In this document: piece by piece, positions 3,798 through 64,000 of the stretch | How the letters are laid out: every line of letters starts with the position of its first letter | How positions within the stretch are numbered: the stretch's first letter is position 1 | Virus record (IMG/VR): IMGVR_UViG_3300045988_122072 | Span: 32,001-96,000 of that record | DNA from: a virus | Direction: 5' to 3' (one strand) | Length of the DNA: 64,000 bases | Notes under the pieces: model-generated | What the model saw: only the letters and a program-made list of their open reading frames with translations | Told to the model about the DNA's origin: nothing | Databases searched by the model: none | Made by a program: the position numbers and the translations under genes

Positions 3798-4994
3798 TTA
3801 AAGTTTTATATTATATTCTACGACGTTTCCTTTGCCTTTCTCTAAAACGAATAGGGTAGCACCAGGATCAGACGCTTTATTTAAAGATAACGAATAATCA
3901 TCAACACCTATAATGCTAGGAACACTAATAATATCAGATTCAATTCCGACATTGCTACTTGACTTATGATGCTTGTGTCCACCAATTAAATAATCAATAT
4001 GTACCTTATAAATTCTAGAAAAGTCTTTAATCGCTTGTTCAAGGGACTTTCCTTCACCATGATACCCAAAAATATTATATCCGGCAATTTGATCAAATAC
4101 ATAGCCAGTAGGATTCTGAATGAATTCAAAATTAGGATTATCTCCAAGTCTATCCATAAGCTTATCTGTAATAATATATGATACATTTTCATCCTTGAAT
4201 GTATTTTTAGGTTGTCCCAACATCCTAAGTTGACAATGATTAGAATCTTTCACCATTTGATATCTAACTTTTACATACTTGGTTAATTCATTTAACCACT
4301 CTGTAATAAAACGTCCATATCTCGCGGTGCTTTCGATAACTCCATATCTTAATTTCATAAGTGCAGAGACTCTTAAACATCCCTCAATTTCGTCGCCAAG
4401 ATCATAAACATTTAGTATATCAAAGCCTTCTTTATTACAAATCTGAAGAACTTGATTAAGTAAATTCCACATTCTTTTTTCAAAAATTTCAGGAGAATAT
4501 TCATTTAAAATTTCCCCAAAAAGTCCTTGAATACATAAATCTTTCCCATAATGAGGATCTGCAAAAACTAAGTTTCCAAACCTTGTATTATATTTTGGCT
4601 CAATGACACGAGGAATATCTAGCTTTGGCATTTCTCTAATTGCCTCGGCAATATGTTCTGCGATAAGTTCTTCTCTTGCTTCTTCTCTAAGCCATCTATT
4701 ATATTCCACTTTTTCTGTCTGCAGCTTTTTACGTTCCTTTTCAATGCCTTTACGTTCAGAACGAATTTTTTCAAGATATTCATCTTCTGTAAAAAATGCA
4801 CCTTCATTTGCTTCCATCATTTTATTAAAACTCTGCACTTTTTTTCTATATGCACTCTCACCGTAGTTATATCCAAGAGATTCATTTAATATGTCTGCAA
4901 TATTTTGCCACGTCCATCCTTGTGACTCTTTCATGGAGCATATGCGCAGTATATATTGCTCTTCGTTTTCATTACTTAATTTATCATAACTCAT
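3798..4994 (-). CDS. calcineurin-like metallophosphoesterase with N-terminal helix-turn-helix-like region
   Basis: 398 aa with phosphoesterase motifs FADPHYG (DxH), DLGDEIEG (GD), GYHGEG and GGHKHH (GHxH). GGGGTGG SD. Confidence 0.7.
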   Translation of the reverse strand: MSYDKLSNENEEQYILRICSMKESQGWTWQNIADILNESLGYNYGESAYRKKVQSFNKMMEANEGAFFTEDEYLEKIRSERKGIEKERKKLQTEKVEYNRWLREEAREELIAEHIAEAIREMPKLDIPRVIEPKYNTRFGNLVFADPHYGKDLCIQGLFGEILNEYSPEIFEKRMWNLLNQVLQICNKEGFDILNVYDLGDEIEGCLRVSALMKLRYGVIESTARYGRFITEWLNELTKYVKVRYQMVKDSNHCQLRMLGQPKNTFKDENVSYIITDKLMDRLGDNPNFEFIQNPTGYVFDQIAGYNIFGYHGEGKSLEQAIKDFSRIYKVHIDYLIGGHKHHKSSSNVGIESDIISVPSIIGVDDYSLSLNKASDPGATLFVLEKGKGNVVEYNIKL

Positions 4995-8635: not shown

Positions 8636-11471
8636 CTATAATTTCACCTCCAATTCTAATAGTTTTATTAGAAAATTTCGTACCACAACAACAAAAATCT
8701 GCATTTTCACTCTTTTCTGGATATGTAAGAGTATTATCATGTTTTTCTAACATATTTTTAATAATTTGAGTACCGCAAACATCCCAAACTATAGTTTTAC
8801 TCATTTTCCCAGTATAACAAATATCTAATAAAATATCACAAAGAGACTCTTCATTCGGGCAAATAGACGTCATATCTTCTATGAGAGTTTCGAGAAGTCT
8901 GTCTTTGTCCTCTAATAATATCTTTCTTTCTTCTTCATTATTAATTTTTCTACTATTTAAAGCCTTCAAATTCATTAAATAATGCTCGCACAAACCTTTT
9001 ATTTCTGCATAAGAGCTTCTTCTTACATTATTTTTTGATTTATAAATACTATAGTCAAATTCTAATTCTTCACAAGAAAAATTTCCGTCAAATTTCTCTT
9101 CTATTTTTCTACAAATACGATTCATAGTAGAAGGAGACATATCAATAGGGCATTTTGCAGAACAATATTGAACAAATTTAGCCTCATCTTCACTTAAATT
9201 ATCCATTTTTAGCATATCTTCAAACGAAATACCATATAGACCAATTGATTTTGAATTAACTTCTTCAATAAATTTTTGATAATTAATTCTTTCTGTATCG
9301 TAGTTATACATAAAGAAATACGGCTTTTTATTTGCACAAATTGTTTGATTAAATGCTTTTTTCTCTTGAATTTCCTCAGAATCATCAGGCTTTATGATAT
9401 TTGCGCCATATTGATACCATTCTTTTGGCATCGGAATAGGTAAAATCCCCTTTGCTTTATCAATTTCTCTTTGTTGCAGTGCTTGACCACATTGAGTTCT
9501 ATATCTTAATGTTTCATATTCTTTACTATTTGGGGCATAATTTGCCATCAAACTTGTCATTTGTGTAATTTTATTTGTTATGGAACCAATTTTACTGCCA
9601 AATCCAGCCTTATTTGAAGCAATTATATCCTCTTCTTTAACTACTTTTTTAGGAGCCTTTGTCTGTATACAATTCAATGCAGGAAGATTAGTTTGTCTTC
9701 TTATCAATGACACATTATTTGTTGTAAATAATAAATCACCATCAAAATCAAAGCCATTTAATGCAGCGGGCATTGTGTCCCACCCATTTACAACTATACA
9801 AGTATCAATATATTGAAACCAATCAAGAGCTTTTTTATCTTTACATATATTTTGAGCAACTATAGAATGAGCATTACTCATTGGAGCTCTAAAACAAAGA
9901 ACTCTATCTACGCCTTCATCATACCAATATTTACTATAAATTTCACCAGCCTTTAAAATTCCATGTGGTTCCAGCCCAAACATACTTTCACAAAGGGCAT
10001 ATAAATCCCCAGAAAGGATTTGGAAGTTCCCATGCAGATCCAAAACGCCAATTTTAGCATCTTTTATTCGTCTATTTATCATTTTTTTGATTTTTGAGCG
10101 AATATAAGGATCATTTATAGCAATTTTATCAATCATAAGCGCTTTTGCAATATTTTCAGCAAAGATTACATTTTTCTCATTTAATCCCTTGCCACATAAA
10201 TATGCAACGCTTTTTCTTGGATCTAACTCCATAATATCTTTAATTTCATTAACTGTTAGTGCAATAAGCTCATCTATATCATCATCTGTAAGGTCTAAAG
10301 ACTGTATAAATTGATAATTTAATTGCCTTATATCATCATTTTCTTCTTCAGATGTCTTTGTAACTCTTAAAGTATAATGATTCGCAATACATTTTTCATA
10401 ATAATCTTCCCATGAAGAATAACTGCCGCACAACTTAAGCTGGCTTTCAGTTAATATTAAATCAGCATCGCGTATATCTCTTTCTTTCCCCCAATAATCT
10501 TTAATTAAATACTTTTCTGGATGTTCTGCAGACGCACCAATAATTTCTTCTGCGAATCTAATAAAATCAAAAGTAAGAGCCATGCCTTTTGTAAAAGCAC
10601 AACGCATATTACATCCGCTCATTGTATGTTCTGAGTTTCCATTTAGCTCTCCATTCCACCTTTTAGACAAGTGGGGGAGCATCATTGAACATCCATCCGA
10701 CATATTATTTTCAAAATCTTCATTATGTTTTTCTGTTACTTTTGGTTCTACCGTTGGATCACTGTCATCTATTTCAATAAAATTCGTCTTAAAATGAACA
10801 ACACAGTCTTTTACAACAATAATGCCTCCGGGAATATTACTTTCACGAGATCTAGGCCAGCTAACTGGGATTGATGCACTAGCGGCAAGTGATTCATAGG
10901 CTCCATACTTAGCAGGAGAGAGCTTTACATCTGTATTTCTGCCATTTGCTATGCGTCTCTTTAACTCATCATGAATATTTACACTTTGCCCATTGTACTC
11001 AACGAATCTATCTGCGGCATATACAACACTGGATGTTTTTACTCCATTGGTAGTGCAAATCAATCTTTTATATGCAATTCCATTTACTTTAAACCCTTTA
11101 TTTGCTCTATCATAATCAGACTTTTTATCAAAAACCACACATAAATAGTCCTTTTTGAACTGTAAATCATATAATTCTGTATATTTTTCTGAAACTTTTT
11201 TCTTATTGTCATCACTATTTGGCTGTTTTTTAATTTCTTTTATGTCTTTTTTAATTTGTTTTGCTCTTGAATCATAATCCTCGGTTCCATTTAGCTCATT
11301 AATCCAAGTTAAAATTTGCGAATCAGCCAAAGAAACAACAACCCCAGGAATTTTTCTTGCGTCTGACAATGGTAATTCTAATTCCCAATTATTTTGCTTG
11401 AGCAGACTTGAATTAATTTTATATATATACTGTTGTGTTTTTTGCTGTTTTGCCAAACGCACCGCCTCCAA
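8625..11471 (-). CDS. YonO/cellular-RdRP-like single-subunit RNA polymerase (candidate)
   Basis: 948-aa ORF. RVLCFRAPMSNAHSIV is followed about 45 aa later by NGFDFDGDLLF, the DxDGD metal-binding signature of two-barrel RNA polymerases. GAT TTT GAT GGT GAT lies at 9735-9749 (minus). There is no ATG at the 5' end: candidates are TTG 11471, GTG 11462 and TTG 11456 (the last with GGAGG 7 nt upstream). Confidence 0.6.
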   Translation of the reverse strand: MEAVRLAKQQKTQQYIYKINSSLLKQNNWELELPLSDARKIPGVVVSLADSQILTWINELNGTEDYDSRAKQIKKDIKEIKKQPNSDDNKKKVSEKYTELYDLQFKKDYLCVVFDKKSDYDRANKGFKVNGIAYKRLICTTNGVKTSSVVYAADRFVEYNGQSVNIHDELKRRIANGRNTDVKLSPAKYGAYESLAASASIPVSWPRSRESNIPGGIIVVKDCVVHFKTNFIEIDDSDPTVEPKVTEKHNEDFENNMSDGCSMMLPHLSKRWNGELNGNSEHTMSGCNMRCAFTKGMALTFDFIRFAEEIIGASAEHPEKYLIKDYWGKERDIRDADLILTESQLKLCGSYSSWEDYYEKCIANHYTLRVTKTSEEENDDIRQLNYQFIQSLDLTDDDIDELIALTVNEIKDIMELDPRKSVAYLCGKGLNEKNVIFAENIAKALMIDKIAINDPYIRSKIKKMINRRIKDAKIGVLDLHGNFQILSGDLYALCESMFGLEPHGILKAGEIYSKYWYDEGVDRVLCFRAPMSNAHSIVAQNICKDKKALDWFQYIDTCIVVNGWDTMPAALNGFDFDGDLLFTTNNVSLIRRQTNLPALNCIQTKAPKKVVKEEDIIASNKAGFGSKIGSITNKITQMTSLMANYAPNSKEYETLRYRTQCGQALQQREIDKAKGILPIPMPKEWYQYGANIIKPDDSEEIQEKKAFNQTICANKKPYFFMYNYDTERINYQKFIEEVNSKSIGLYGISFEDMLKMDNLSEDEAKFVQYCSAKCPIDMSPSTMNRICRKIEEKFDGNFSCEELEFDYSIYKSKNNVRRSSYAEIKGLCEHYLMNLKALNSRKINNEEERKILLEDKDRLLETLIEDMTSICPNEESLCDILLDICYTGKMSKTIVWDVCGTQIIKNMLEKHDNTLTYPEKSENADFCCCGTKFSNKTIRIGGEIIDEI

Positions 11472-12402: not shown

Positions 12403-12798
12403 TCAACCAAATTGATATTCTACATGACCGCATCTATCACAACAATATTCATATTTCGCAGGATAAGAAGTTAGCACTACCATTTCATTGCGACGCATAC
12501 CGCCTTTATGACATTTAGGGCAAATATACTTTGGTTCTGACCATTCTTGTGGATAGCACATAGAATCTTCAATAAATTTACGATATTCATCCGCAGTAGG
12601 GAGCCCTGTATTTAATTCACTCACAGATACATCACCGGTATTTTTACAATAAATAATTTGCAATGTCTTCATATCAGTGGTCGTAGTAGTGGTTACAGTC
12701 TTATTAATAGGAAAATCATTATTCTGACAATTCTCACAAGGGTTAATGATACTCCAATATGGCCCGTTATATGGACAATTCTCACATAATTTATTCAT
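12403..12798 (-). CDS. small multi-CxxC zinc-ribbon protein
   Basis: 131 aa with CENC, CENC, CPKC and CDRC. GGAGG SD. Confidence 0.7.
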   Translation of the reverse strand: MNKLCENCPYNGPYWSIINPCENCQNNDFPINKTVTTTTTTDMKTLQIIYCKNTGDVSVSELNTGLPTADEYRKFIEDSMCYPQEWSEPKYICPKCHKGGMRRNEMVVLTSYPAKYEYCCDRCGHVEYQFG

Positions 12799-12803
12799 AT
12801 ATT

Positions 12804-12902
12804 TTACCTCCGTATATTTTTTAAATTATTTTTATCAAAACGGTTAATAGCGAAAAGTCCTACAATAAATGCTAGAACAATCACGCATACTTCTAAAGAC
12901 AT
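12804..12902 (-). CDS. 32-aa putative membrane peptide
   Basis: MSLEVCVIVLAFIVGLFAINRF... GGAGG SD 7 nt upstream. Its stop overlaps the SD of the next gene. Below the ORF-track cutoff. Confidence 0.35.
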   Translation of the reverse strand: MSLEVCVIVLAFIVGLFAINRFDKNNLKNIRR

Positions 12903-58916: not shown

Positions 58917-59116
58917 TACTGTGCGGAGAAGGTTGTATTCCCTGCTGTGACTTTTGTATTTACTCAATTCGTGATATTTGGGTTGATGAAAATGGCTGGG
59001 AAAATGACCAAGGGCCAAAAGGATGCGCGAAATATAATGATGAAGCGCACCAAGATATAGCATTTGATAATGGTTTTTGTGAAGATTTTCATTGTTTTAG
59101 AGCTAAAAATAATTAA
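58913..59116 (+). CDS. Cys-rich small protein (67 aa)
   Basis: CGEGCIPCCDFC ... CEDFHC. Confidence 0.6.
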   Translation: MILCGEGCIPCCDFCIYSIRDIWVDENGWENDQGPKGCAKYNDEAHQDIAFDNGFCEDFHCFRAKNN

Positions 59117-59124
59117 AATATCTC

Positions 59125-59152
59125 TTGACAAATAAGAAAAACGTGTTATAAT
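59125..59152 (+). promoter_or_regulatory. sigma-A type promoter (AGACAG subclass)
   Basis: ctcTTGACAAATaagaaaaacgTGtTATAATctAGACAGT, with the leader box 21 nt downstream of the -10. Confidence 0.7.
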
Positions 59153-59210
59153 CTAGACAGTAAGAAACACAAAACAAAATTAAAGTAAAATCAAAAAGGA
59201 GAATTGAGTT

Positions 59211-59795
59211 ATGACAAATGTGTTCAATGGTATGTTCGGAAAGATTGCTCCCGGTATGTGCCGACTTTCTATGAGCGGAGGAATCGCTGTTAAGACTTCC
59301 AATGGCTATAAGAGCTATAATGTGAAGAATGGGCGTCTTACAAATTGTGACAGCTTTGTTTTTGACATTGGCGAAGAGTTCTTCTTCGTTATGCCAACCA
59401 ACAAGGTTGAAGTTGGAGACATTATTCTAGTGTCTGGCAAGCCAAAGTGTGTTATTAAGGCTGAGAAGGAGACCATTACGGTTATTAATTATGAGGATTC
59501 TACTGTAGAAACCGTCCTCCCTGAGCGTCATGTATTTATGGGAAGTACTTATTTCTATGGTAAGATCGTATCTATGTTCGGTAACAATTTTATGAAGGGC
59601 AAGAAGGGTGTGGACAAGATGATGTCTTATATGGTCATGTCCGAGATGATGAAGGGTGGTAATGGTTCAAGCAACGGAATGAATTCTATGCTTCCTATGA
59701 TGATGCTTATGAATGGCGGTAATATGTCGGATATGTTTAGCGGAATGTTTAATTTTGATATTGATGCAATCGACGATGAAAGTGAGGCTGAGTAA
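59211..59795 (+). CDS. hypothetical protein with Met/Gly/Asn-rich low-complexity C-terminal region
   Basis: 194 aa with AAAGGAGA SD. C-terminal MMSYMVMSEMMKGGNGSSNGMNSMLPMMMLMNGGNMSDMFSGMF. Confidence 0.75.
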   Translation: MTNVFNGMFGKIAPGMCRLSMSGGIAVKTSNGYKSYNVKNGRLTNCDSFVFDIGEEFFFVMPTNKVEVGDIILVSGKPKCVIKAEKETITVINYEDSTVETVLPERHVFMGSTYFYGKIVSMFGNNFMKGKKGVDKMMSYMVMSEMMKGGNGSSNGMNSMLPMMMLMNGGNMSDMFSGMFNFDIDAIDDESEAE

Positions 59796-59797
59796 TT

Positions 59798-60661
59798 ATG
59801 GGTGGCGGTTCTTGGACGAGAGATAACTTTACTAGCTATGTAACTACTGCAAAGTGTGCAATGGTAGACGATTTTGGTGTTGTCAGAGGACTAAATAGTG
59901 TTCAGGATAATTTTAAATCGAGATGCCTAGTGGCGGAGCTTAATCCTAAAAATGTTGTTCGCGAGTGTGTAGATTCCGCAGAGCATCCCAATACAAAGCC
60001 TGTTATTCTAGCACTCGATGTCACTGGTAGTATGGGCAGTGCAGCCATGGAAGTTGCAAAGCAGATCAATGTTGTTATGACAAGCCTATATGAGAAGATG
60101 ACAGATGTTGAATTTATGATTATGGGCATTGGAGATCTTGCTTATGATAACGCTCCAATTCAGGCATCTCAGTTTGAATCAGATATCAGAATCGCAGAAC
60201 AGCTTGATAAAATTTATTTTGAGGGCGGTGGCGGCGGCAATTCTTATGAGTCCTATACTGCCGCATGGTATTTTGGGCTTAATCATACCAAACTAGATTG
60301 TTGGAATCGTGGGCAGAAGGGTGTTATTATTACAATGGGTGATGAACCTTTGAATCCGTATCTGCCTAAGAATACTCTATCTGTTGCGACTGGTGATAAC
60401 CTACAGGATGATGTTGAGACAGCTCAGCTTTACAAGGATGCTTCTGAGAAGTTTGATATCTACCATTTGTATGTAAAGCATGGGTATGGTCGTTATGAAG
60501 AAGCCGTTAAGGATACTTTCGGCAAGTTTCTTGATACGAATCATCTCAAGACTACATCTGTAAATAAGATTGCAGATGACATTATTGAGATTGTAACAAA
60601 TGCATTTACTGGAAGCGATACAAGTACATTTGTAAATACTAGCGAAGGAATTTCTTGGTAA
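59798..60661 (+). CDS. von Willebrand factor A (vWA) domain protein
   Basis: MIDAS-type ILALDVTGSMGS, followed by alternating beta/alpha-like segments (IITMGDEP). Confidence 0.7.
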   Translation: MGGGSWTRDNFTSYVTTAKCAMVDDFGVVRGLNSVQDNFKSRCLVAELNPKNVVRECVDSAEHPNTKPVILALDVTGSMGSAAMEVAKQINVVMTSLYEKMTDVEFMIMGIGDLAYDNAPIQASQFESDIRIAEQLDKIYFEGGGGGNSYESYTAAWYFGLNHTKLDCWNRGQKGVIITMGDEPLNPYLPKNTLSVATGDNLQDDVETAQLYKDASEKFDIYHLYVKHGYGRYEEAVKDTFGKFLDTNHLKTTSVNKIADDIIEIVTNAFTGSDTSTFVNTSEGISW

Positions 60662-60675
60662 GAGGAGATAAACAC

Positions 60676-61824
60676 ATGTCTAATGTTAAAGTAGTAATCG
60701 GTAGCAATTTTGGGGACGAAGGAAAAGGATTGATGACTGATTATTTCTGCGCAGAAGCAAAAAAGCGGAATGAATCCTGTATTGTTGTTTTATCTAATGG
60801 CGGAGCGCAGAGAGGGCACACTGTGGTTACGCCAGATGGCATTAGACATGTGTTTCATCATTTTGGTTCTGGCACTTTTGCAGAAGCCCCTACATATTTT
60901 AGTGAGCAATATATTTTGAATCCTATGACTTTCAGAAAAGAGCATGAAGAATTGGATTCTTTAGGCTTTAAGCCACTCGTTTGTGCTCATTGGAATTGCA
61001 GATGGTCAACGCCGTATGACGTGATCGTAAATCAAATTCTTGAAGATAGTCGTGGAGAAAATCGACATGGATCTTGCGGCATGGGAATCTGGGAAACTAT
61101 CTGCAGATATACAAGTACTGGAGCACCATCATTGCGGCACTTTAATATGATGAGTGAAGAATATAAAGTTCAATTTCTAAAAAATATTAGAGATAAATAT
61201 ATGCCGCAGAGATTAGCGTCTGCGAATCCAGATGTAGTAAAACAGTGGGAAGAAATTCTATATTCTGATAATCTAATTTATAATTTTATTGCGGACATTC
61301 AGTTCATGTGTTCGCATATGGTTTTTGATTATGGACGCATATTGAGACGATATGACAATGTTGTATTTGAAAATGGGCAAGGTCTGCTACTAGATCAGAA
61401 CCAGACAAGATACGGAGACAATACAACTCCTAGCAATACTGGAATTCAGAACCCGCATGTGATTATTGAAAAGTATTTATTTGGCGCTAACGTTGAAGTG
61501 TGTTATGTTACAAGAACATACCTAACAAGACATGGTGCTGGGGCTTTTGATGGTGAATGTGATAAATCTGAAATCAATGGTTCTATGAAAGATAAGACCA
61601 ATGTGCCAAATCCGTATCAGGGCAGTATTCGATATGGTAAGCTGGATGTTAATGAACTTGTAAACAGAATCAAAAAGGATATTGGGGAGCATTCTTATAA
61701 TGTATCTTTGGCAGTGACACATTTGAACGAGTTTGAAAACAAAGAGTTATTGGCACTAAAGGAACTAAATGTTAAGTATTTGTCTTATAATGAGACTAGA
61801 AAATTAACAGAAAAAATTTCCTGA
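60676..61824 (+). CDS. adenylosuccinate synthetase (PurA)/PurZ-family enzyme, divergent
   Basis: 382 aa. GSNFGDEGKGLMTDY (PurA P-loop GDEGKGK), GGAQRGHT (GGHNAGHT), FENGQGLLLD (FEGAQGTLLD) and TRHGAGAF (TRVGAGPF). The TKLD guanine box is replaced by THLN. Confidence 0.75.
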   Translation: MSNVKVVIGSNFGDEGKGLMTDYFCAEAKKRNESCIVVLSNGGAQRGHTVVTPDGIRHVFHHFGSGTFAEAPTYFSEQYILNPMTFRKEHEELDSLGFKPLVCAHWNCRWSTPYDVIVNQILEDSRGENRHGSCGMGIWETICRYTSTGAPSLRHFNMMSEEYKVQFLKNIRDKYMPQRLASANPDVVKQWEEILYSDNLIYNFIADIQFMCSHMVFDYGRILRRYDNVVFENGQGLLLDQNQTRYGDNTTPSNTGIQNPHVIIEKYLFGANVEVCYVTRTYLTRHGAGAFDGECDKSEINGSMKDKTNVPNPYQGSIRYGKLDVNELVNRIKKDIGEHSYNVSLAVTHLNEFENKELLALKELNVKYLSYNETRKLTEKIS

Positions 61825-61830
61825 AAGTAC

Positions 61831-61858
61831 TTGACAAATAAAAAATATATGATATAAT
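61831..61858 (+). promoter_or_regulatory. sigma-A type promoter (AGACAG subclass)
   Basis: acTTGACAAATaaaaaatataTGaTATAATatGGACAGT, with the leader box at 61881. Confidence 0.7.
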
Positions 61859-61910
61859 ATGGACAGTTGAAAGAAACAAAACAAAATTAATTGAAAAGGA
61901 GCAAGAAAAA

Positions 61911-62240
61911 ATGATTAAGTATTATCACCTGAGCGATGGCACGACGATTGGCGAGCTGCGGGGTACAAAGTATGACTGTATTAACCGGATTGCAAAGGCA
62001 ATGGGTATGACAAAGAGCCTGTGCTTCGATCCTAGTAAGTATCTTATGAATGATGTCTTCAAGGCTGCGTCTAAGCCCTATGGCGGCGACGAGTACGACA
62101 AGGAATATGGCGAACAGGAAGTAAAGCGCAAGGTCATGCGGAAGTATTATAAGCAGCTTGATAGACTGTCTTCTGCGTTCGTAGAGGATCTCAATAAGGC
62201 GATGTTCGAAGCATCTTGGCGGCTTACAAAAAATTCTTAA
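61911..62240 (+). CDS. hypothetical protein (109 aa)
   Basis: AAAGGAG SD. Confidence 0.7.
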   Translation: MIKYYHLSDGTTIGELRGTKYDCINRIAKAMGMTKSLCFDPSKYLMNDVFKAASKPYGGDEYDKEYGEQEVKRKVMRKYYKQLDRLSSAFVEDLNKAMFEASWRLTKNS

Positions 62241-62247
62241 AAACCTC

Positions 62248-62275
62248 TTGACAAATAAAAAATTTATGATATAAT
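62248..62275 (+). promoter_or_regulatory. sigma-A type promoter (AGACAG subclass) driving the structured-RNA array
   Basis: ctcTTGACAAATaaaaaatttaTGaTATAATacAGAtAGT, with the leader box at 62295. No SD or CDS follows for about 540 nt. Confidence 0.7.
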
Positions 62276-62340
62276 ACAGATAGTTCAAGACAATACAAAA
62301 TTAAAGTTCCTGAGCACGAACTGAAAAGGCTCAACTATAT

Positions 62341-62464
62341 GCGATGATAGTCAAATGGTTAAGACGGCAGCGATTATTTTGAAGTGTCTAGCTAGACATG
62401 AACAGCAAGTTTGCAAAATTAATGCTCCAAGCTGCAATTGTGGGTTCGATTCCTACTCATCGCA
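62341..62464 (+). tRNA. tRNA-like gene 1 (Trp-like features) with 59-nt segment in place of the 7-nt anticodon loop
   Basis: Acceptor GCGATGA (62341-47) / TCATCGC (62457-63). D arm TA-GTCA..GAC. Anticodon-stem strands GCAGC (62367-71) / GCTGC (62431-35). T arm GTGGG-TTCGATT-CCTAC (62440-56). The last loop nt read CTCCAA. Confidence 0.55.
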
Positions 62465-62472
62465 ATCATATG

Positions 62473-62590
62473 TCTCCTGTAGCTCAGTCGGGTAGAGCGC
62501 TTAATAACGAGACTTGTAAAAGCCTTAAACAGCAAGTTTCTAACTGGTCTGTTAAACCAGAGGTCACAGGTTCGAGCCCTGTCAGGAGAC
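62473..62590 (+). tRNA. tRNA-Asn(GUU)-like gene 2 with 44-nt insertion between D arm and anticodon arm
   Basis: Acceptor TCTCCTG / CAGGAGA. D arm GCTC-AGTCGGGTA-GAGC. Anticodon arm CTGGT-CTGTTAA-ACCAG (62544-60). Variable AGGTC. T arm ACAGG-TTCGAGC-CCTGT. The insertion at 62500-62543 forms its own 8-bp hairpin. Confidence 0.6.
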
Positions 62591-62596
62591 TTTAAA

Positions 62597-62651
62597 AAGG
62601 CACTAGCAGCAACTTTAAACAATATGCTGGATATTATATTGATGGTGCCTT
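62597..62651 (+). ncRNA. minihelix unit 3 (7-bp closing stem plus CAGCAA box)
   Basis: AAGGCAC (62597-603) / GTGCCTT (62645-51). The box TAGCAGCAACTTT follows the stem directly. Inner stem CAGCA/TGCTG. Confidence 0.4.
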
Positions 62652-62661
62652 GCCTTACATA

Positions 62662-62729
62662 GAGACGCTTACAGCAATTTAAAAAAGATGAAAATGATAT
62701 TTTTACTAATGATTTTATTTTGGCGTCTC
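62662..62729 (+). ncRNA. minihelix unit 4
   Basis: GAGACGC (62662-68) / GCGTCTC (62723-29). The box TTACAGCAATTT follows the stem directly. Confidence 0.4.
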
Positions 62730-62744
62730 GTTGAATAAACTCCA

Positions 62745-62798
62745 AAGACACTAACAGCAAATTTTTAATGTTGGAGATTGTACATAAGAATGTGTCTT
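62745..62798 (+). ncRNA. minihelix unit 5
   Basis: AAGACAC (62745-51) / GTGTCTT (62792-98). The box TAACAGCAAATTT follows the stem directly. Confidence 0.4.
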
Positions 62799-62835
62799 GG
62801 GATTTAGAAATAAATCAAAAATGGAGGAAAGAAAA

Positions 62836-64000
62836 ATGTCTTTTATGAATGCAGTAAAGAATACTCTGAACGAGGATTTCAACTATTCGGTGACTGAGAA
62901 TGGTGCTCTTGGGTATCGTACTTCTGGCAAAGAACTGACTGACCTAAACTTTGCCGTTGCTTCTATGCGCGGTATGAACGAGAAGACCATCTATGATAAG
63001 TTCACGAAGGCTTATTTCGAAGACAAGATGATGGCTTTACGTTGGTTATTTTTCGCAAGAGATGTTCGTGGCGGTCTTGGCGAGAGACGTTTGTTCAGAA
63101 CGGTTCTTAAAAATATGGTAAAGGACGACCCCAATACTGTTAAACGTCTTGCCTGTCTGGTGAGCGAGTATGGCCGTTATGATGACCTGTGGTGTCTGTT
63201 TGGAACGGATGTGGATGGTGTTGTTTTCGATATCATTAAGAAGCAGCTTTCTGATGACATCGCAAATATGGCAGAGAATAAACCCGTATCTCTTCTTGCT
63301 AAGTGGCTCCCTTCCGTAAATGCTTCTTCTACAAGAACTAAGATGAATGCAAGATATATTTGCAAGAATCTTAGTATGACTGAGCGTGAGTATCGTAAGA
63401 CACTTTCTTCTCTTCGTTCTTACATTGATATTGTAGAGAGCAAGATGTCTGCAAAGAAGTGGGAAGACATTAAGTATGAAACGGTTCCTTCTCGTGCAAA
63501 TCTCATTTATAACAGAGCTTTCCTTCGTAATGATGAGGAGCGTCGCAGAGAGTATCTGAGTAAGCTCGAAAATGGTGAAGCTAAGATTAATGCGGGAACT
63601 TTGTTTCCTCACGACATTGTGCATAAGTATTCTAGCACAACTGGATGGGGCTGCCGCGTCAACGAGTACGATGCAACTCTTGAATCTCTTTGGAAGGCTT
63701 TGCCTGACACAGTAAATGGGTGTGGAAACACCATTGTAGTCGCAGACAGTTCTGGCTCTATGTGTTGCAATATTGGTGGAAATACTCATATTGCAGCACT
63801 TGAAGTTGCGAATGCACTTGCAATTTACTTTGCAGAACATTCTTCTGGTGACTTTAAGGATAAGTACATTACTTTCTCTAGCAGACCTCAATTGGTTGAT
63901 TTTAGTCAGTGCAATTCTCTAAGAGATAAGCTTCGTGTTGCATATAGTCATAGTGAGTGTTCAAATACGAACATTGAAAAGGTGTTTGATTTGATTCTTA
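62836..64000 (+). CDS. DUF2828-type protein (helical N-domain plus C-terminal vWA/MIDAS), 3' end outside window
   Basis: Not in the ORF track because there is no stop before the window end. GGAGG SD. TENGALGYRTSG, LAKWLPS, YETVPSRANLIYNRAFLRNDEERRREYL, KINAGTLFPHDIV and MIDAS VVADSSGSM match my memory of the DUF2828/UCP015417 vWA family. Confidence 0.8.
   Translation, partial: MSFMNAVKNTLNEDFNYSVTENGALGYRTSGKELTDLNFAVASMRGMNEKTIYDKFTKAYFEDKMMALRWLFFARDVRGGLGERRLFRTVLKNMVKDDPNTVKRLACLVSEYGRYDDLWCLFGTDVDGVVFDIIKKQLSDDIANMAENKPVSLLAKWLPSVNASSTRTKMNARYICKNLSMTEREYRKTLSSLRSYIDIVESKMSAKKWEDIKYETVPSRANLIYNRAFLRNDEERRREYLSKLENGEAKINAGTLFPHDIVHKYSSTTGWGCRVNEYDATLESLWKALPDTVNGCGNTIVVADSSGSMCCNIGGNTHIAALEVANALAIYFAEHSSGDFKDKYITFSSRPQLVDFSQCNSLRDKLRVAYSHSECSNTNIEKVFDLIL

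What the first reader, a model, noticed from the sequence alone, without database searches (positions are those of the whole stretch)
62248..64000. Structured tRNA-like RNA array sits directly upstream of a DUF2828 (helical + vWA) gene, reminiscent of Ro/Rsr with Y RNA
The promoter at 62248 drives about 540 nt of tRNA-like RNA and then, without a recognisable terminator, the DUF2828 gene (62836 onward). That protein has an alpha-helical N-region followed by a MIDAS-containing vWA domain (VVADSSGSM). This is the same two-part architecture as Ro60/Rsr TROVE proteins. Ro60/Rsr proteins bind Y RNAs, and bacterial and phage Y RNAs are known to contain tRNA-mimicking modules and to be encoded next to rsr. 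I infer that the RNA array could be the ligand or cofactor of the DUF2828 protein, i.e. an undescribed phage RNP. Homology between DUF2828 and TROVE was not verified here.
Basis: inference. Interest (0 to 1): 0.8.

Follow-up and report, generated by a model that had tools for sequence, protein, structure and literature searches.

The report
Phage Ro60-like protein with Y-like RNAs
A gut phage gene for a Ro60-like RNA-binding protein (DUF2828) is preceded by five small structured RNAs, two built into tRNA bodies, that share a motif found beside this gene family in phages of very different bacteria; they are probably the protein's previously undescribed RNA partners.

Summary
A perfect sigma-70 promoter (62248-62275) is followed by five RNA units and then the DUF2828/DUF7788 gene (ATG 62836), with no terminator between.

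Only two units are tRNA-like. Unit 2 is a complete tRNA-Asn(GUU) with a 44-nt insert between the D arm and the anticodon stem. Units 3-5 are plain hairpins.

- **Protein fold:** an AlphaFold model matches only Ro60/TROVE structures over its full length (Foldseek E 1e-10 to 1e-6). There is no Pfam TROVE match.
- **RNA motif:** CAGCAA units lie beside DUF2828 genes, always on the gene strand, in metagenomic phages and in cultured E. coli, Listeria, Bacillus and Mycobacterium phages. The helix covaries. Sister phages that lack the gene also lack the array. Rfam holds no such family.
- **tRNA link:** 51 of 80 diverse DUF2828 loci have a tRNA within 3 kb.

The protein is already annotated as "Ro-like RNA-binding protein". 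The RNA family appears to be new. Binding and function are inferred, not shown. I rate it a new variant of the Ro60-Y RNA kind, interest 0.74.

The parts
62248..62275 (+). Sigma-70-type promoter (TTGACA, 16 nt, TG-TATAAT) driving the RNA array and probably the gene
   Evidence: 12/12 consensus match. It is invariant in eight near-identical contigs. The same cassette occurs at 59125 and 61831.
62341..62464 (+). Unit 1: tRNA-like scaffold (acceptor, D and T arms) whose anticodon loop is replaced by a 59-nt arm. The arm holds hairpin 62384-62399 (GUGUCU-AGCU-AGACAU), linker GAA and CAGCAA at 62403-62408.
   Evidence: Rfam tRNA 48.7 bits. No ARAGORN call. Motif located. Relatives carry a different tRNA-like scaffold with an analogous insert at this position (L014/L015/L017).
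62473..62590 (+). Unit 2: complete tRNA-Asn(GUU) body carrying a 44-nt extra arm (62500-62543) between position 26 and the anticodon stem. CAGCAA lies at 62530-62535. The hairpin 5' of the motif is degenerate (GAGAC/GCCUU).
   Evidence: Rfam tRNA 42.6 bits. Deleting 62500-62543 gives an ARAGORN tRNA-Asn(gtt) of 74 nt. The unit is conserved in L011-L025. L026 has a perfect hairpin at the same place.
62597..62652 (+). Unit 3: stand-alone hairpin, AAGGCAC-UAG-CAGCAA...GUGCCUUG
   Evidence: Model R1, 18.1 bits, E 0.0046 with filters off. MFE stem. Conserved in relatives.
62658..62733 (+). Unit 4: stand-alone hairpin, GAGACGC-UUA-CAGCAA...GCGUCUCG
   Evidence: R1 38.4 bits, E 1.1e-6. A near-identical copy was in the training set. 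Fold z-score -2.6.
62741..62802 (+). Unit 5: gene-proximal stand-alone hairpin, AAGACAC-UAA-CAGCAA...GUGUCUUG. It ends 33 nt before the start codon.
   Evidence: R1 36.7 bits, E 2.8e-6. In relatives a unit sits at about -60 to -100 from the ATG.
62823..62827 (+). Shine-Dalgarno sequence GGAGG of the DUF2828 gene
   Evidence: Read directly from the sequence.
62836..64000 (+). 5' 1165 nt of the DUF2828/DUF7788 gene (helical ring domain plus vWA with MIDAS DSSGS), cut by the window end. The full length is 516 aa in L001 10926-12476.
   Evidence: Pfam. Full-length relative P0001 at 99% identity. Ro60-like fold. PHROG 850 'RNA-binding protein'.

Best explanation
The locus encodes a Ro60-type ribonucleoprotein of a divergent branch. 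The DUF2828+DUF7788 protein has the Ro60 architecture: an alpha-helical repeat ring plus a vWA/MIDAS domain. The five upstream units are its cognate small RNAs, functional analogues of Y RNAs.

Each RNA carries one protein-binding module. This is a 7-bp helix (5'-AAGRCRC / GYGYCUU-3', closed by a conserved A..G) followed directly by single-stranded NNA-CAGCAA-N-UUU. The module is joined to a variable second part:
- a whole tRNA body (units 1 and 2 here);
- an anticodon-stem-loop mimic (many relatives, mostly Lys-UUU-like);
- a plain AU-rich loop (units 3-5 here).

The array is transcribed from the 62248 promoter, probably as one precursor with the mRNA. RNase P and RNase Z would cut out the tRNA-shaped units and so free the hairpins. 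The gene-proximal unit may also let the protein regulate its own mRNA.

By analogy with Ro60/Rsr-Y RNA, and from the constant placement in phage tRNA clusters, the particle most likely acts on tRNAs or other structured RNAs during infection. Candidate roles are surveillance or repair, tethering a host nuclease, or displaying tRNA/anticodon decoys to tRNA-cleaving defences.

Shown: the fold similarity, the RNA motif and its covariation, the co-location, the strand bias and the co-loss. Inferred: binding, processing and biological role.
For: Protein:
- Foldseek's top 7 hits are all Ro60/TROVE over the full length.
- The family profile finds only Ro60/TROVE chains among 177,635 PDB sequences.
- MIDAS motif D-x-S-x-S (D304, S306, S308) is invariant in the family.

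RNA motif beside the gene:
- CAGCAA occurs at 3.09 per kb in the 700 nt upstream of 80 diverse DUF2828 genes. The opposite strand has 0.07 per kb, the gene 0.30 per kb and the far flanks 0.65 per kb.
- 50 of 80 loci have at least 2 copies.
- Model R1 gives 103 hits at E<=0.01 in 721 kb, all on the gene strand, in 55 of 80 loci. These include loci not used for training (L093-L104, L107, L109).

Helix:
- 59% of units have a perfect 7-bp partner within 130 nt, against 15% at random positions.
- With the 3' strand anchored only on invariant bases, the two free positions pair in 89/95 and 90/95 units. Permutation means are 54.9 and 68.6, maxima 65 and 78.
- All 7 pairs show compensatory changes.
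- The G after the 3' strand is at least 90% conserved although it was not selected for.

Breadth: units flank the gene in E. coli phage VpaE1, Mycobacterium phage Samty, Listeria phage LMSP-25 and Bacillus phage vB_BcoS-136.

Co-loss: sister contigs L007-L009 lack both the array and the gene. Homology to L001 breaks at 10399-10433 and resumes at 12483. They have no R1 hit.

Reverse direction: of 59 exact-pattern sites with a helix in IMG/VR, 31 have DUF2828 in the held stretch. Counting all sites with the gene, 33 of 33 are on its strand, the median distance is 360 nt and 32 lie upstream.

Precedent: the canonical phage Ro60 of Thermus phage phiLo binds two Y-like RNAs encoded just upstream of its gene (PMC12135203). 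Bacterial YrlA RNAs contain tRNA-like domains (PMC4201824).
Against: - No binding, expression or processing data exist.
- There is no Pfam TROVE match even at E<=10. Whole-chain TM-scores to Ro60 are moderate (0.35-0.54).
- The RNAs lack the GNCGAA/GGUCCGA Ro-binding motif.
- About half of the well-formed units found by pattern search (28 of 59) lie in tRNA clusters with no DUF2828 gene in the held stretch, in some cases with more than 5 kb on each side. The motif could therefore belong to tRNA arrays rather than to the protein.
- The unit 2 hairpin is imperfect. Its MFE fold pairs part of CAGCAA.
- Helix statistics from A5 and A7 are partly circular, because units were chosen for a 7/7 helix.
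- No conserved protein-coding neighbour gives a functional hint.
Confidence: 0.6

Rival explanations
1. The CAGCAA hairpins are a feature of phage tRNA arrays as such: processing or spacer signals, stabilisers, or independent small RNAs or decoys. DUF2828 is another gene that tends to sit in tRNA arrays, and the two are linked only through the array, not by binding.
For: 28 of 59 well-formed units found by pattern search lie among 2-11 tRNAs with no DUF2828 gene in the held stretch. Units are scattered between tRNAs in Bacillus phage vB_BcoS-136 and E. coli phage VpaE1. 51 of 80 DUF2828 loci have tRNAs within 3 kb.
Against: Unit density peaks just upstream of the gene: 3.09 per kb against 0.65 per kb in the equally tRNA-rich far flanks. 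A unit sits at a fixed -60 to -100 from the ATG. Loci with no detectable tRNA in 3 kb still carry 3-5 units (for example L032, L033, L045, L051, L077, L093). The Listeria phage has three units directly upstream, separated from the tRNAs by a CDS. The array and the gene are lost together in L007-L009 while the tRNAs remain. Held stretches are short, so a DUF2828 gene elsewhere on those contigs is not excluded.
Confidence: 0.17
2. The hairpins are cis-acting leader elements of the DUF2828 mRNA only (translational operator, stability or processing sites), not separate RNAs.
For: They lie on the same strand with no terminator between the promoter and the gene. The proximal unit is at a constant distance from the ATG.
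Against: There are 2-7 copies per locus. In many phages the units lie downstream of the gene or between tRNAs (VpaE1 and Samty; L062, L078 and L085). Units are embedded in tRNA bodies that RNase P and RNase Z would excise.
Confidence: 0.12
3. Units 1 and 2 are ordinary phage tRNA genes with introns that are spliced out. Their position next to DUF2828 is incidental, at the start of the phage tRNA cluster.
For: Rfam tRNA scores exceed the gathering score. Unit 2 becomes a perfect tRNA-Asn after deletion of the insert. A tRNA with a group I intron lies just downstream of the gene in L001.
Against: The inserts are 44-59 nt with no group I core. They sit at different places: the 26/27 junction in unit 2 and the anticodon loop in unit 1. 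They carry the same module as the non-tRNA hairpins. No canonical 7-nt anticodon loop can be restored for unit 1. The phage has a normal tRNA-Asn(gtt) as well.
Confidence: 0.06
4. The repeats are remnants or targets of mobile elements (homing endonucleases, recombination hot spots) in a plastic region.
For: L007 has a LAGLIDADG gene preceded by half a unit. L023 and L025 have units 4 and 5 fused exactly at the motif. Homing endonuclease genes and IS605 elements are frequent neighbours.
Against: The helix shows compensatory covariation. Strand bias is strict. The motif is conserved across phages of Proteobacteria, Firmicutes and Actinobacteria.
Confidence: 0.04

Closest known systems
Ro60/Rsr (TROVE + vWA) with Y RNAs: bacterial YrlA/YrlB (Rfam RF02553) and Thermus phage phiLo Ro60 with Yrl1/Yrl2
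   Same: The protein has a helical-repeat ring plus a C-terminal vWA/MIDAS domain. Several small structured RNAs are encoded next to the gene on the same strand. The RNAs are modular: a protein-binding stem with a conserved single-stranded motif on the 5' strand, plus a variable module that can mimic tRNA (PMC4201824, PMC12135203).
   Different: There is no TROVE Pfam match. The RNA motif is helix + ACAGCAA rather than GNCGAA(N)G or GGUCCGA. The tRNA topology is not permuted: here the RNA ends form the acceptor stem and the module is an added or substituted arm, whereas in YrlA the ends form the Ro-binding stem. Arrays hold up to 5-7 units. The locus is embedded in phage tRNA gene clusters.
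Phage 'Ro-like RNA-binding protein' / PHROG 850 / Pfam DUF2828 as annotated in cultured phages (Felixounavirus, Listeria P100-like phages, cluster L mycobacteriophages such as LeBron gp53)
   Same: It is the same protein family: PHROG 850 at 1.1e-141, and 710 phage records by tblastn.
   Different: Those annotations name no RNA partner. The only functional datum found is moderate cytotoxicity of LeBron gp53 on overexpression (PMC13148394).
tRNA (RF00005), including intron-bearing and class II long-arm tRNAs
   Same: Units 1 and 2 have acceptor, D and T arms. Unit 2 also has an Asn anticodon arm.
   Different: There is a 44-nt extra arm at position 26/27, or the anticodon loop is replaced. The inserts are conserved and share the module with non-tRNA hairpins.

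Membership tests
Pfam DUF2828 (PF11443) + DUF7788 (PF25043) | HMM matches above the gathering scores | tested here: met
   124.2 and 45.9 bits for the window fragment. 122.7 and 156.9 bits for full-length P0001.
Ro60/TROVE | Sequence match to the TROVE domain (PF05731) | tested here: not met
   No TROVE hit at E<=10. phmmer against PDB finds nothing. The family profile gives only marginal vWA-region hits to Ro60, at E 0.035-0.42.
Ro60/TROVE | Fold: helical-repeat ring followed by a vWA domain with MIDAS | tested here: met
   The AF2 model (pLDDT 79.9) has Ro60/TROVE structures as its top 7 Foldseek hits, aligned over 505-571 columns at E 1.8e-10 to 1.7e-6. Ring closure itself could not be inspected.
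Ro60/TROVE | Cognate small RNAs encoded beside the gene on the same strand | tested here: met
Ro60/TROVE | Binds Y RNA or misfolded RNA | not testable with these tools
   Needs RIP, EMSA or a structure.
Y RNA / YrlA (RF02553) | Covariance-model score at or above the gathering score (69 bits), and the GNCGAA(N)G motif in the terminal stem | tested here: not met
   The only hit scores 26 bits at 62418-62526. It spans the T arm of unit 1 and the D arm of unit 2, which is the tandem-tRNA artefact. The units carry CAGCAA, not GNCGAA.
tRNA (RF00005) | Cloverleaf score at or above the gathering score (29 bits) | tested here: met
   48.7 and 42.6 bits for units 1 and 2. Units 3-5 give no hit.
tRNA (RF00005) | Canonical length with a 7-nt anticodon loop | tested here: not met
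   ARAGORN finds no tRNA. Unit 1 has 59 nt instead of the loop. Unit 2 needs a 44-nt deletion at position 26/27 to be called.
Group I intron-containing tRNA | Group I catalytic core inside the insert | tested here: not met
   There is no Intron_gpI hit in 61700-63000 at E<=10. A separate downstream tRNA in L001 does have one.

The most novel reading that the evidence does not exclude
DUF2828 proteins and CAGCAA RNAs form a widespread, unrecognised phage RNP. Its RNA subunits include chimeric tRNAs with a fifth, protein-binding arm and anticodon-stem-loop mimics (chiefly Lys-UUU and Asn-GUU). The particle displays these as decoys or sensors for host tRNA-cleaving defences (PrrC, RloC or PARIS-type anticodon nucleases), or recruits repair enzymes or nucleases to damaged tRNAs. 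That would make it a counter-defence organelle of phage tRNA islands.
Probability: 0.3. Interest if true: 0.88.

Novelty: new variant of a known kind. Interest (0 to 1): 0.74.

Why it matters
DUF2828 proteins are common. The search found 6932 clusters at 50% identity, 710 cultured-phage records, and members in model and therapeutic phage groups such as Felixounavirus, Listeria P100-like and staphylococcal phages. No partner or role is known for them.

A defined RNA motif with a covariance model gives an immediate handle. It predicts the ligands and marks unannotated small RNA genes in many phage genomes, where gene callers now place spurious ORFs. It also extends the Ro60-Y RNA principle (a protein ring plus a modular, tRNA-mimicking RNA) to a second, much larger viral branch.

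The link to tRNA islands and anticodon-loop mimics makes the role of phage tRNA clusters in the tRNA-cleavage arms race directly testable. tRNAs with an added arm at position 26 are also unusual as RNA architecture.

Tried and rejected
- ARAGORN on the window found no tRNA. The units are seen only by the Rfam model.
- Megablast of 59000-64000 against cultured phages found no match.
- phmmer of the protein against PDB sequences found nothing.
- The weak YrlA hit (26 bits) was rejected as a tandem-tRNA artefact.
- I tested whether the inserts are group I introns, or whether the DUF2828 ORF sits inside an intron. The trigger was a LAGLIDADG gene at the same place in L007 and a group I hit downstream. 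I rejected this: the group I core belongs to a separate tRNA after the gene, with exons at L001 about 12527-12560 and 12810-12852. L008 has an intact tRNA-Leu there.
- I read the U.G pair at the helix top as a possible P1-like splice site and dropped it. It is not general, and the helix is simply conserved.
- The search for conserved protein neighbours (62 flanking ORFs against Pfam) found no recurrent partner. There were only scattered RNA ligases, homing endonucleases and IS605 elements.
- Systematic in-silico deletion to assign tRNA identities to all embedded units was too noisy to use.
- Single-sequence MFE folds of the units are not significantly stable, except unit 4. The evidence for structure is comparative.
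- Literature searches for DUF2828, Ro-like protein and phage Y-like RNAs found no description of this RNA.
Full report
**1. What is in the window**

A consensus sigma-70 promoter lies at 62248-62275: TTGACA, 16 nt, TATAAT, with a TG extension and 12/12 matches. It is one of three identical cassettes; the others are at 59125 and 61831. About 520 nt of non-coding sequence follows. Then come GGAGG (62823-62827) and the ATG at 62836 of an ORF that runs off the window end. No terminator-like site lies on the + strand in between.

The ORF matches Pfam DUF2828 (PF11443) and DUF7788 (PF25043). It contains VVADSSGSM, a MIDAS-type D-x-S-x-S.

ARAGORN finds no tRNA in the 64 kb. The Rfam tRNA model scores 48.7 bits at 62341-62464 and 42.6 bits at 62473-62590, each with a long insert. 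Three further hairpins follow at 62597-62652, 62658-62733 and 62741-62802.

**2. Anatomy of the units**

All five units contain CAGCAA, mostly as ACAGCAA-N-UUU, at 62403, 62530, 62607, 62672 and 62755. In units 3-5 the motif follows the 5' strand of the closing stem after a 3-nt linker:
- unit 3: AAGGCAC-UAG-CAGCAA...GUGCCUUG
- unit 4: GAGACGC-UUA-CAGCAA...GCGUCUCG
- unit 5: AAGACAC-UAA-CAGCAA...GUGUCUUG

In unit 1 the same strand (AGACAU) pairs with an upstream GUGUCU to form a local hairpin (62384-62399). That hairpin sits inside a long arm that replaces the anticodon loop.

Unit 2 is a complete tRNA-Asn(GUU). Removing 62500-62543 lets ARAGORN call a perfect 74-nt tRNA. The 44-nt insert therefore sits between position 26 and the anticodon stem as a fifth arm. 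Its hairpin is imperfect here but perfect in the relative L026.

The weak YrlA hit (26 bits against a gathering score of 69) spans the T arm of unit 1 and the D arm of unit 2. This is the tandem-tRNA artefact that the YrlA authors themselves warned about (PMC4201824).

**3. The genome**

The upstream 109-aa protein is found on many contigs of about 130-165 kb, 23 of which were read. These give the full gene (516 aa, L001 10926-12476) and its surroundings. Downstream of the gene lies a tRNA island with Asp, Asn, Ile, Gln, Gly and Lys. The island includes:
- a tRNA split by a group I intron (Rfam 41.9 bits, below the gathering score of 50);
- an HDV-like ribozyme hit abutting tRNA-Ile.

The RNA array is 99% identical in eight of these contigs. 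Three sister contigs (L007-L009) lack the DUF2828 gene and also lack the array. Homology with L001 stops at 10399-10433, just after the promoter, and resumes at 12483. They give no hit with the motif model. Array and gene thus behave as one cassette.

**4. The protein**

The family is large: 6932 representatives at E<=0.001 in the 50%-identity library.

phmmer against PDB sequences finds nothing. A profile of 40 diverse members finds only Ro60 and 'TROVE domain-containing protein' chains, at marginal E-values (0.035-0.42) over the MIDAS region.

I built an AlphaFold2 model of the full-length protein from 38 homologues (pLDDT 79.9, pTM 0.77) and searched it against the PDB. The seven best hits are all Ro60/TROVE proteins aligned over 505-571 columns:

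| Entry | Protein | E-value |
|---|---|---|
| 9kop | Trove domain | 1.8e-10 |
| 9l5y | Thermus phage phiLo Ro60 | 2e-7 |
| 2nvo | D. radiodurans Rsr | 7.5e-7 |
| 1yvp / 1yvr | Xenopus Ro | 1.1e-6 to 1.7e-6 |
| 9nen | human Ro60 | 1.5e-6 |

Generic vWA domains follow at E about 1e-3 over about 230 columns. TM-scores are moderate (0.35-0.54), and Pfam TROVE is not matched even at E<=10. The protein is best described as a divergent structural relative of Ro60, not a sequence-level TROVE member.

This is not new knowledge:
- PHROG 850 is named 'RNA-binding protein'.
- tblastn finds the family in 710 cultured-phage records.
- Cluster L mycobacteriophages annotate it as 'Ro-like RNA binding protein'.
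- LeBron gp53 was reported as moderately cytotoxic on overexpression (PMC13148394).

**5. The RNA motif is general and tied to the gene**

I fetched 80 diverse viral loci with 40-73% protein identity.

| Region | CAGCAA per kb |
|---|---|
| 700 nt upstream of the gene, gene strand | 3.09 |
| Same region, opposite strand | 0.07 |
| Inside the gene | 0.30 |
| 700 nt downstream | 1.54 |
| Far flanks | 0.65 |

Fifty loci have at least two copies and 36 have at least three.

The consensus around 206 distinct units is aAAGRCRC-NN-A-CAGCAA-N-UUU. A perfect 7-bp partner lies within 130 nt downstream in 59% of units, against 15% at random positions.

A non-circular test anchored the 3' strand only on the complement of the invariant bases (G.G.CUU). 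The two unconstrained positions then pair in 89/95 and 90/95 units, with A-U, G-C, U-A, C-G and G-U all represented. Permutation means are 54.9 and 68.6, and the maxima are 65 and 78.

On 110 trimmed units all seven pairs show double-sided changes. The G after the 3' strand is at least 90% conserved although it was not selected for. RNAalifold on 34 natural full-length units predicts exactly this helix and nothing else. The units in these two sets were pre-chosen for a 7/7 helix, so the percentage paired is by construction.

A covariance model (R1) finds only units 4 and 5 in the whole window on both strands. Unit 3 appears with filters off. In 721 kb of loci it gives 103 hits at E<=0.01, all on the gene strand, in 55 of the 80 loci. 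These include loci that did not contribute to the model.

**6. Breadth**

The same module flanks the gene in cultured phages of three bacterial phyla:
- E. coli phage VpaE1: four units downstream, among tRNAs, with helix AGACC:GGUCU.
- Mycobacterium phage Samty: three units downstream, one followed by a T arm.
- Listeria phage LMSP-25: a promoter plus three units directly upstream. An RtcB-type ligase gene lies 1.3 kb downstream.
- Bacillus phage vB_BcoS-136: seven units across 17 tRNAs and the upstream gap.

Rfam at gathering thresholds reports only tRNAs in these loci. At E<=10 nothing credible covers units 3-5 of the window. Full-text searches found no description of the RNA.

**7. tRNA association**

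ARAGORN finds a tRNA within 3 kb of the gene in 51 of 80 diverse loci, within 1 kb in 35 and within 500 nt in 24. All 15 closer relatives sit at the edge of clusters of up to 17 tRNAs. No matched control was run. For scale, the whole 64-kb window has no ARAGORN tRNA.

I also tested the reverse direction. An exact 16-base pattern of the module found 81 sites in IMG/VR.
- 59 sites have the expected 3' strand.
- 31 of those 59 have a DUF2828 gene in the held stretch. Counting all sites with the gene, 33 of 33 are on its strand, the median distance is 360 nt and 32 lie upstream.
- The other 28 all lie among 2-11 tRNAs without the gene in the held stretch, in some cases with more than 5 kb on each side.

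This is the main caveat. The motif also belongs to tRNA islands, and without whole contigs I cannot say whether those phages encode the protein elsewhere.

**8. Second modules**

23% of motif sites are followed by a T-arm-like GGUUCRA, against 9% at random positions. By eye, several embedded units are Asn(GUU) or Thr(UGU) tRNAs with the module at the D-arm/anticodon-stem junction.

Among 176 stand-alone units, 64 contain an inner hairpin shaped like an anticodon stem-loop, against 13.1 expected from shuffled loops. The loop CUUUUAA (Lys-UUU-like) occurs 14 times against 0.5 expected. Units 3-5 of this window lack such mimics. Here the tRNA-shaped modules are units 1 and 2.

**9. Interpretation**

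The best-supported reading is a Ro60-type RNP of a divergent branch. The helix + ACAGCAA module is the protein handle and the second module is variable. This parallels Y RNAs, which have a Ro-binding stem with a conserved 5'-strand motif plus an effector module, tRNA-like in YrlA (PMC4201824). It also parallels phiLo Ro60, whose two Y-like RNAs are encoded just upstream of its gene (PMC12135203).

Differences from the Ro60-Y RNA systems:
- The sequence motif is different.
- The tRNA topology is non-permuted.
- The arrays are larger.
- The locus is integrated into tRNA islands.

Processing by RNase P and RNase Z, autoregulation through the proximal unit, and a role in tRNA surveillance, repair or decoying of anticodon nucleases are all inferences. 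No conserved protein neighbour supports a specific pathway. RNA ligase genes do occur in the same genomes (PMC13148394).

Rival readings are listed with their weights in the Rival explanations section. They are elements of tRNA arrays independent of the protein, pure cis-regulatory leaders, intron-bearing tRNAs, and mobile-element debris.

**10. Verdict**

It is refined in one respect: the shared module, not tRNA-likeness, defines the RNAs. It is deflated in another: the Ro-like nature of the protein is already annotated.

The new elements are:
- the RNA family;
- its two topologies, including tRNAs with an added arm;
- its tight, cross-phylum coupling to DUF2828 genes and tRNA islands.

I rate it a new variant of a known kind.

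Noticed in passing
window 60655-61824 (+): PurA-like adenylosuccinate synthetase. It matches PHROG 1211 '2-aminooxy adenylosuccinate synthetase', and only weakly the PurZ model (27.7 bits against a cutoff of 300). This hints at a modified-purine pathway in this phage.
   Followed up: no
window 59798-60661 (+): A second vWA-like protein (287 aa) with a MIDAS-like DVTGSMG, 2 kb upstream of the DUF2828 gene. It matches PHROG 2971 of unknown function and no Pfam family. It is present in L007 and L009, which lack DUF2828, so there is no strict link.
   Followed up: partly
window 59125-59152, 61831-61858, 62248-62275 (+): Three copies of the same perfect promoter cassette, TTGACAAATAAAAAAT.TATGATATAAT, each heading a short transcription unit.
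   Followed up: no
L001 12527-12852 (just beyond the window end): A tRNA (acceptor GCAGGTG/CACCTGC, CCA encoded) interrupted by a group I intron (Rfam 41.9 bits, below the gathering score of 50). Sister contig L008 carries an intact tRNA-Leu(taa) at this place.
   Followed up: partly
L001 13496-13646: tRNA-Ile(tat) is 96 nt long, with an insert that has no CAGCAA. An HDV-like ribozyme hit (HDV-F-prausnitzii, 33.5 bits against a gathering score of 44) follows it directly. A weak 'drum' RNA hit follows tRNA-Gln.
   Followed up: no
L001 14982-15130 compared with L002 14574-14649: tRNA-Lys(ttt) is intact in L002. In L001 it is interrupted in the anticodon loop by a tRNA-like insert of about 75 nt, so inserts in tRNA genes are polymorphic in this phage population.
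   Followed up: no
L007 10434-11328: A LAGLIDADG_3 homing endonuclease gene, preceded by the 5' half of a CAGCAA unit (AGACGCUUACAGCAAU), replaces the array and the DUF2828 gene.
   Followed up: partly
L023 and L025, about 3850-3970: Units 4 and 5 are fused exactly at the CAGCAA motif. The hybrid stem still pairs through a G-U.
   Followed up: no
window 62398-62595 (+): Public gene calls place a 65-aa ORF over the two tRNA-like units (L001 10488-10685). It is almost certainly spurious.
   Followed up: no
Related loci L026-L105 (for example L026 about 2915-2960): Many stand-alone units in relatives carry an inner hairpin that mimics the tRNA-Lys(UUU) anticodon stem-loop (loop CUUUUAA). It occurs 14 times against 0.5 expected.
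   Followed up: partly
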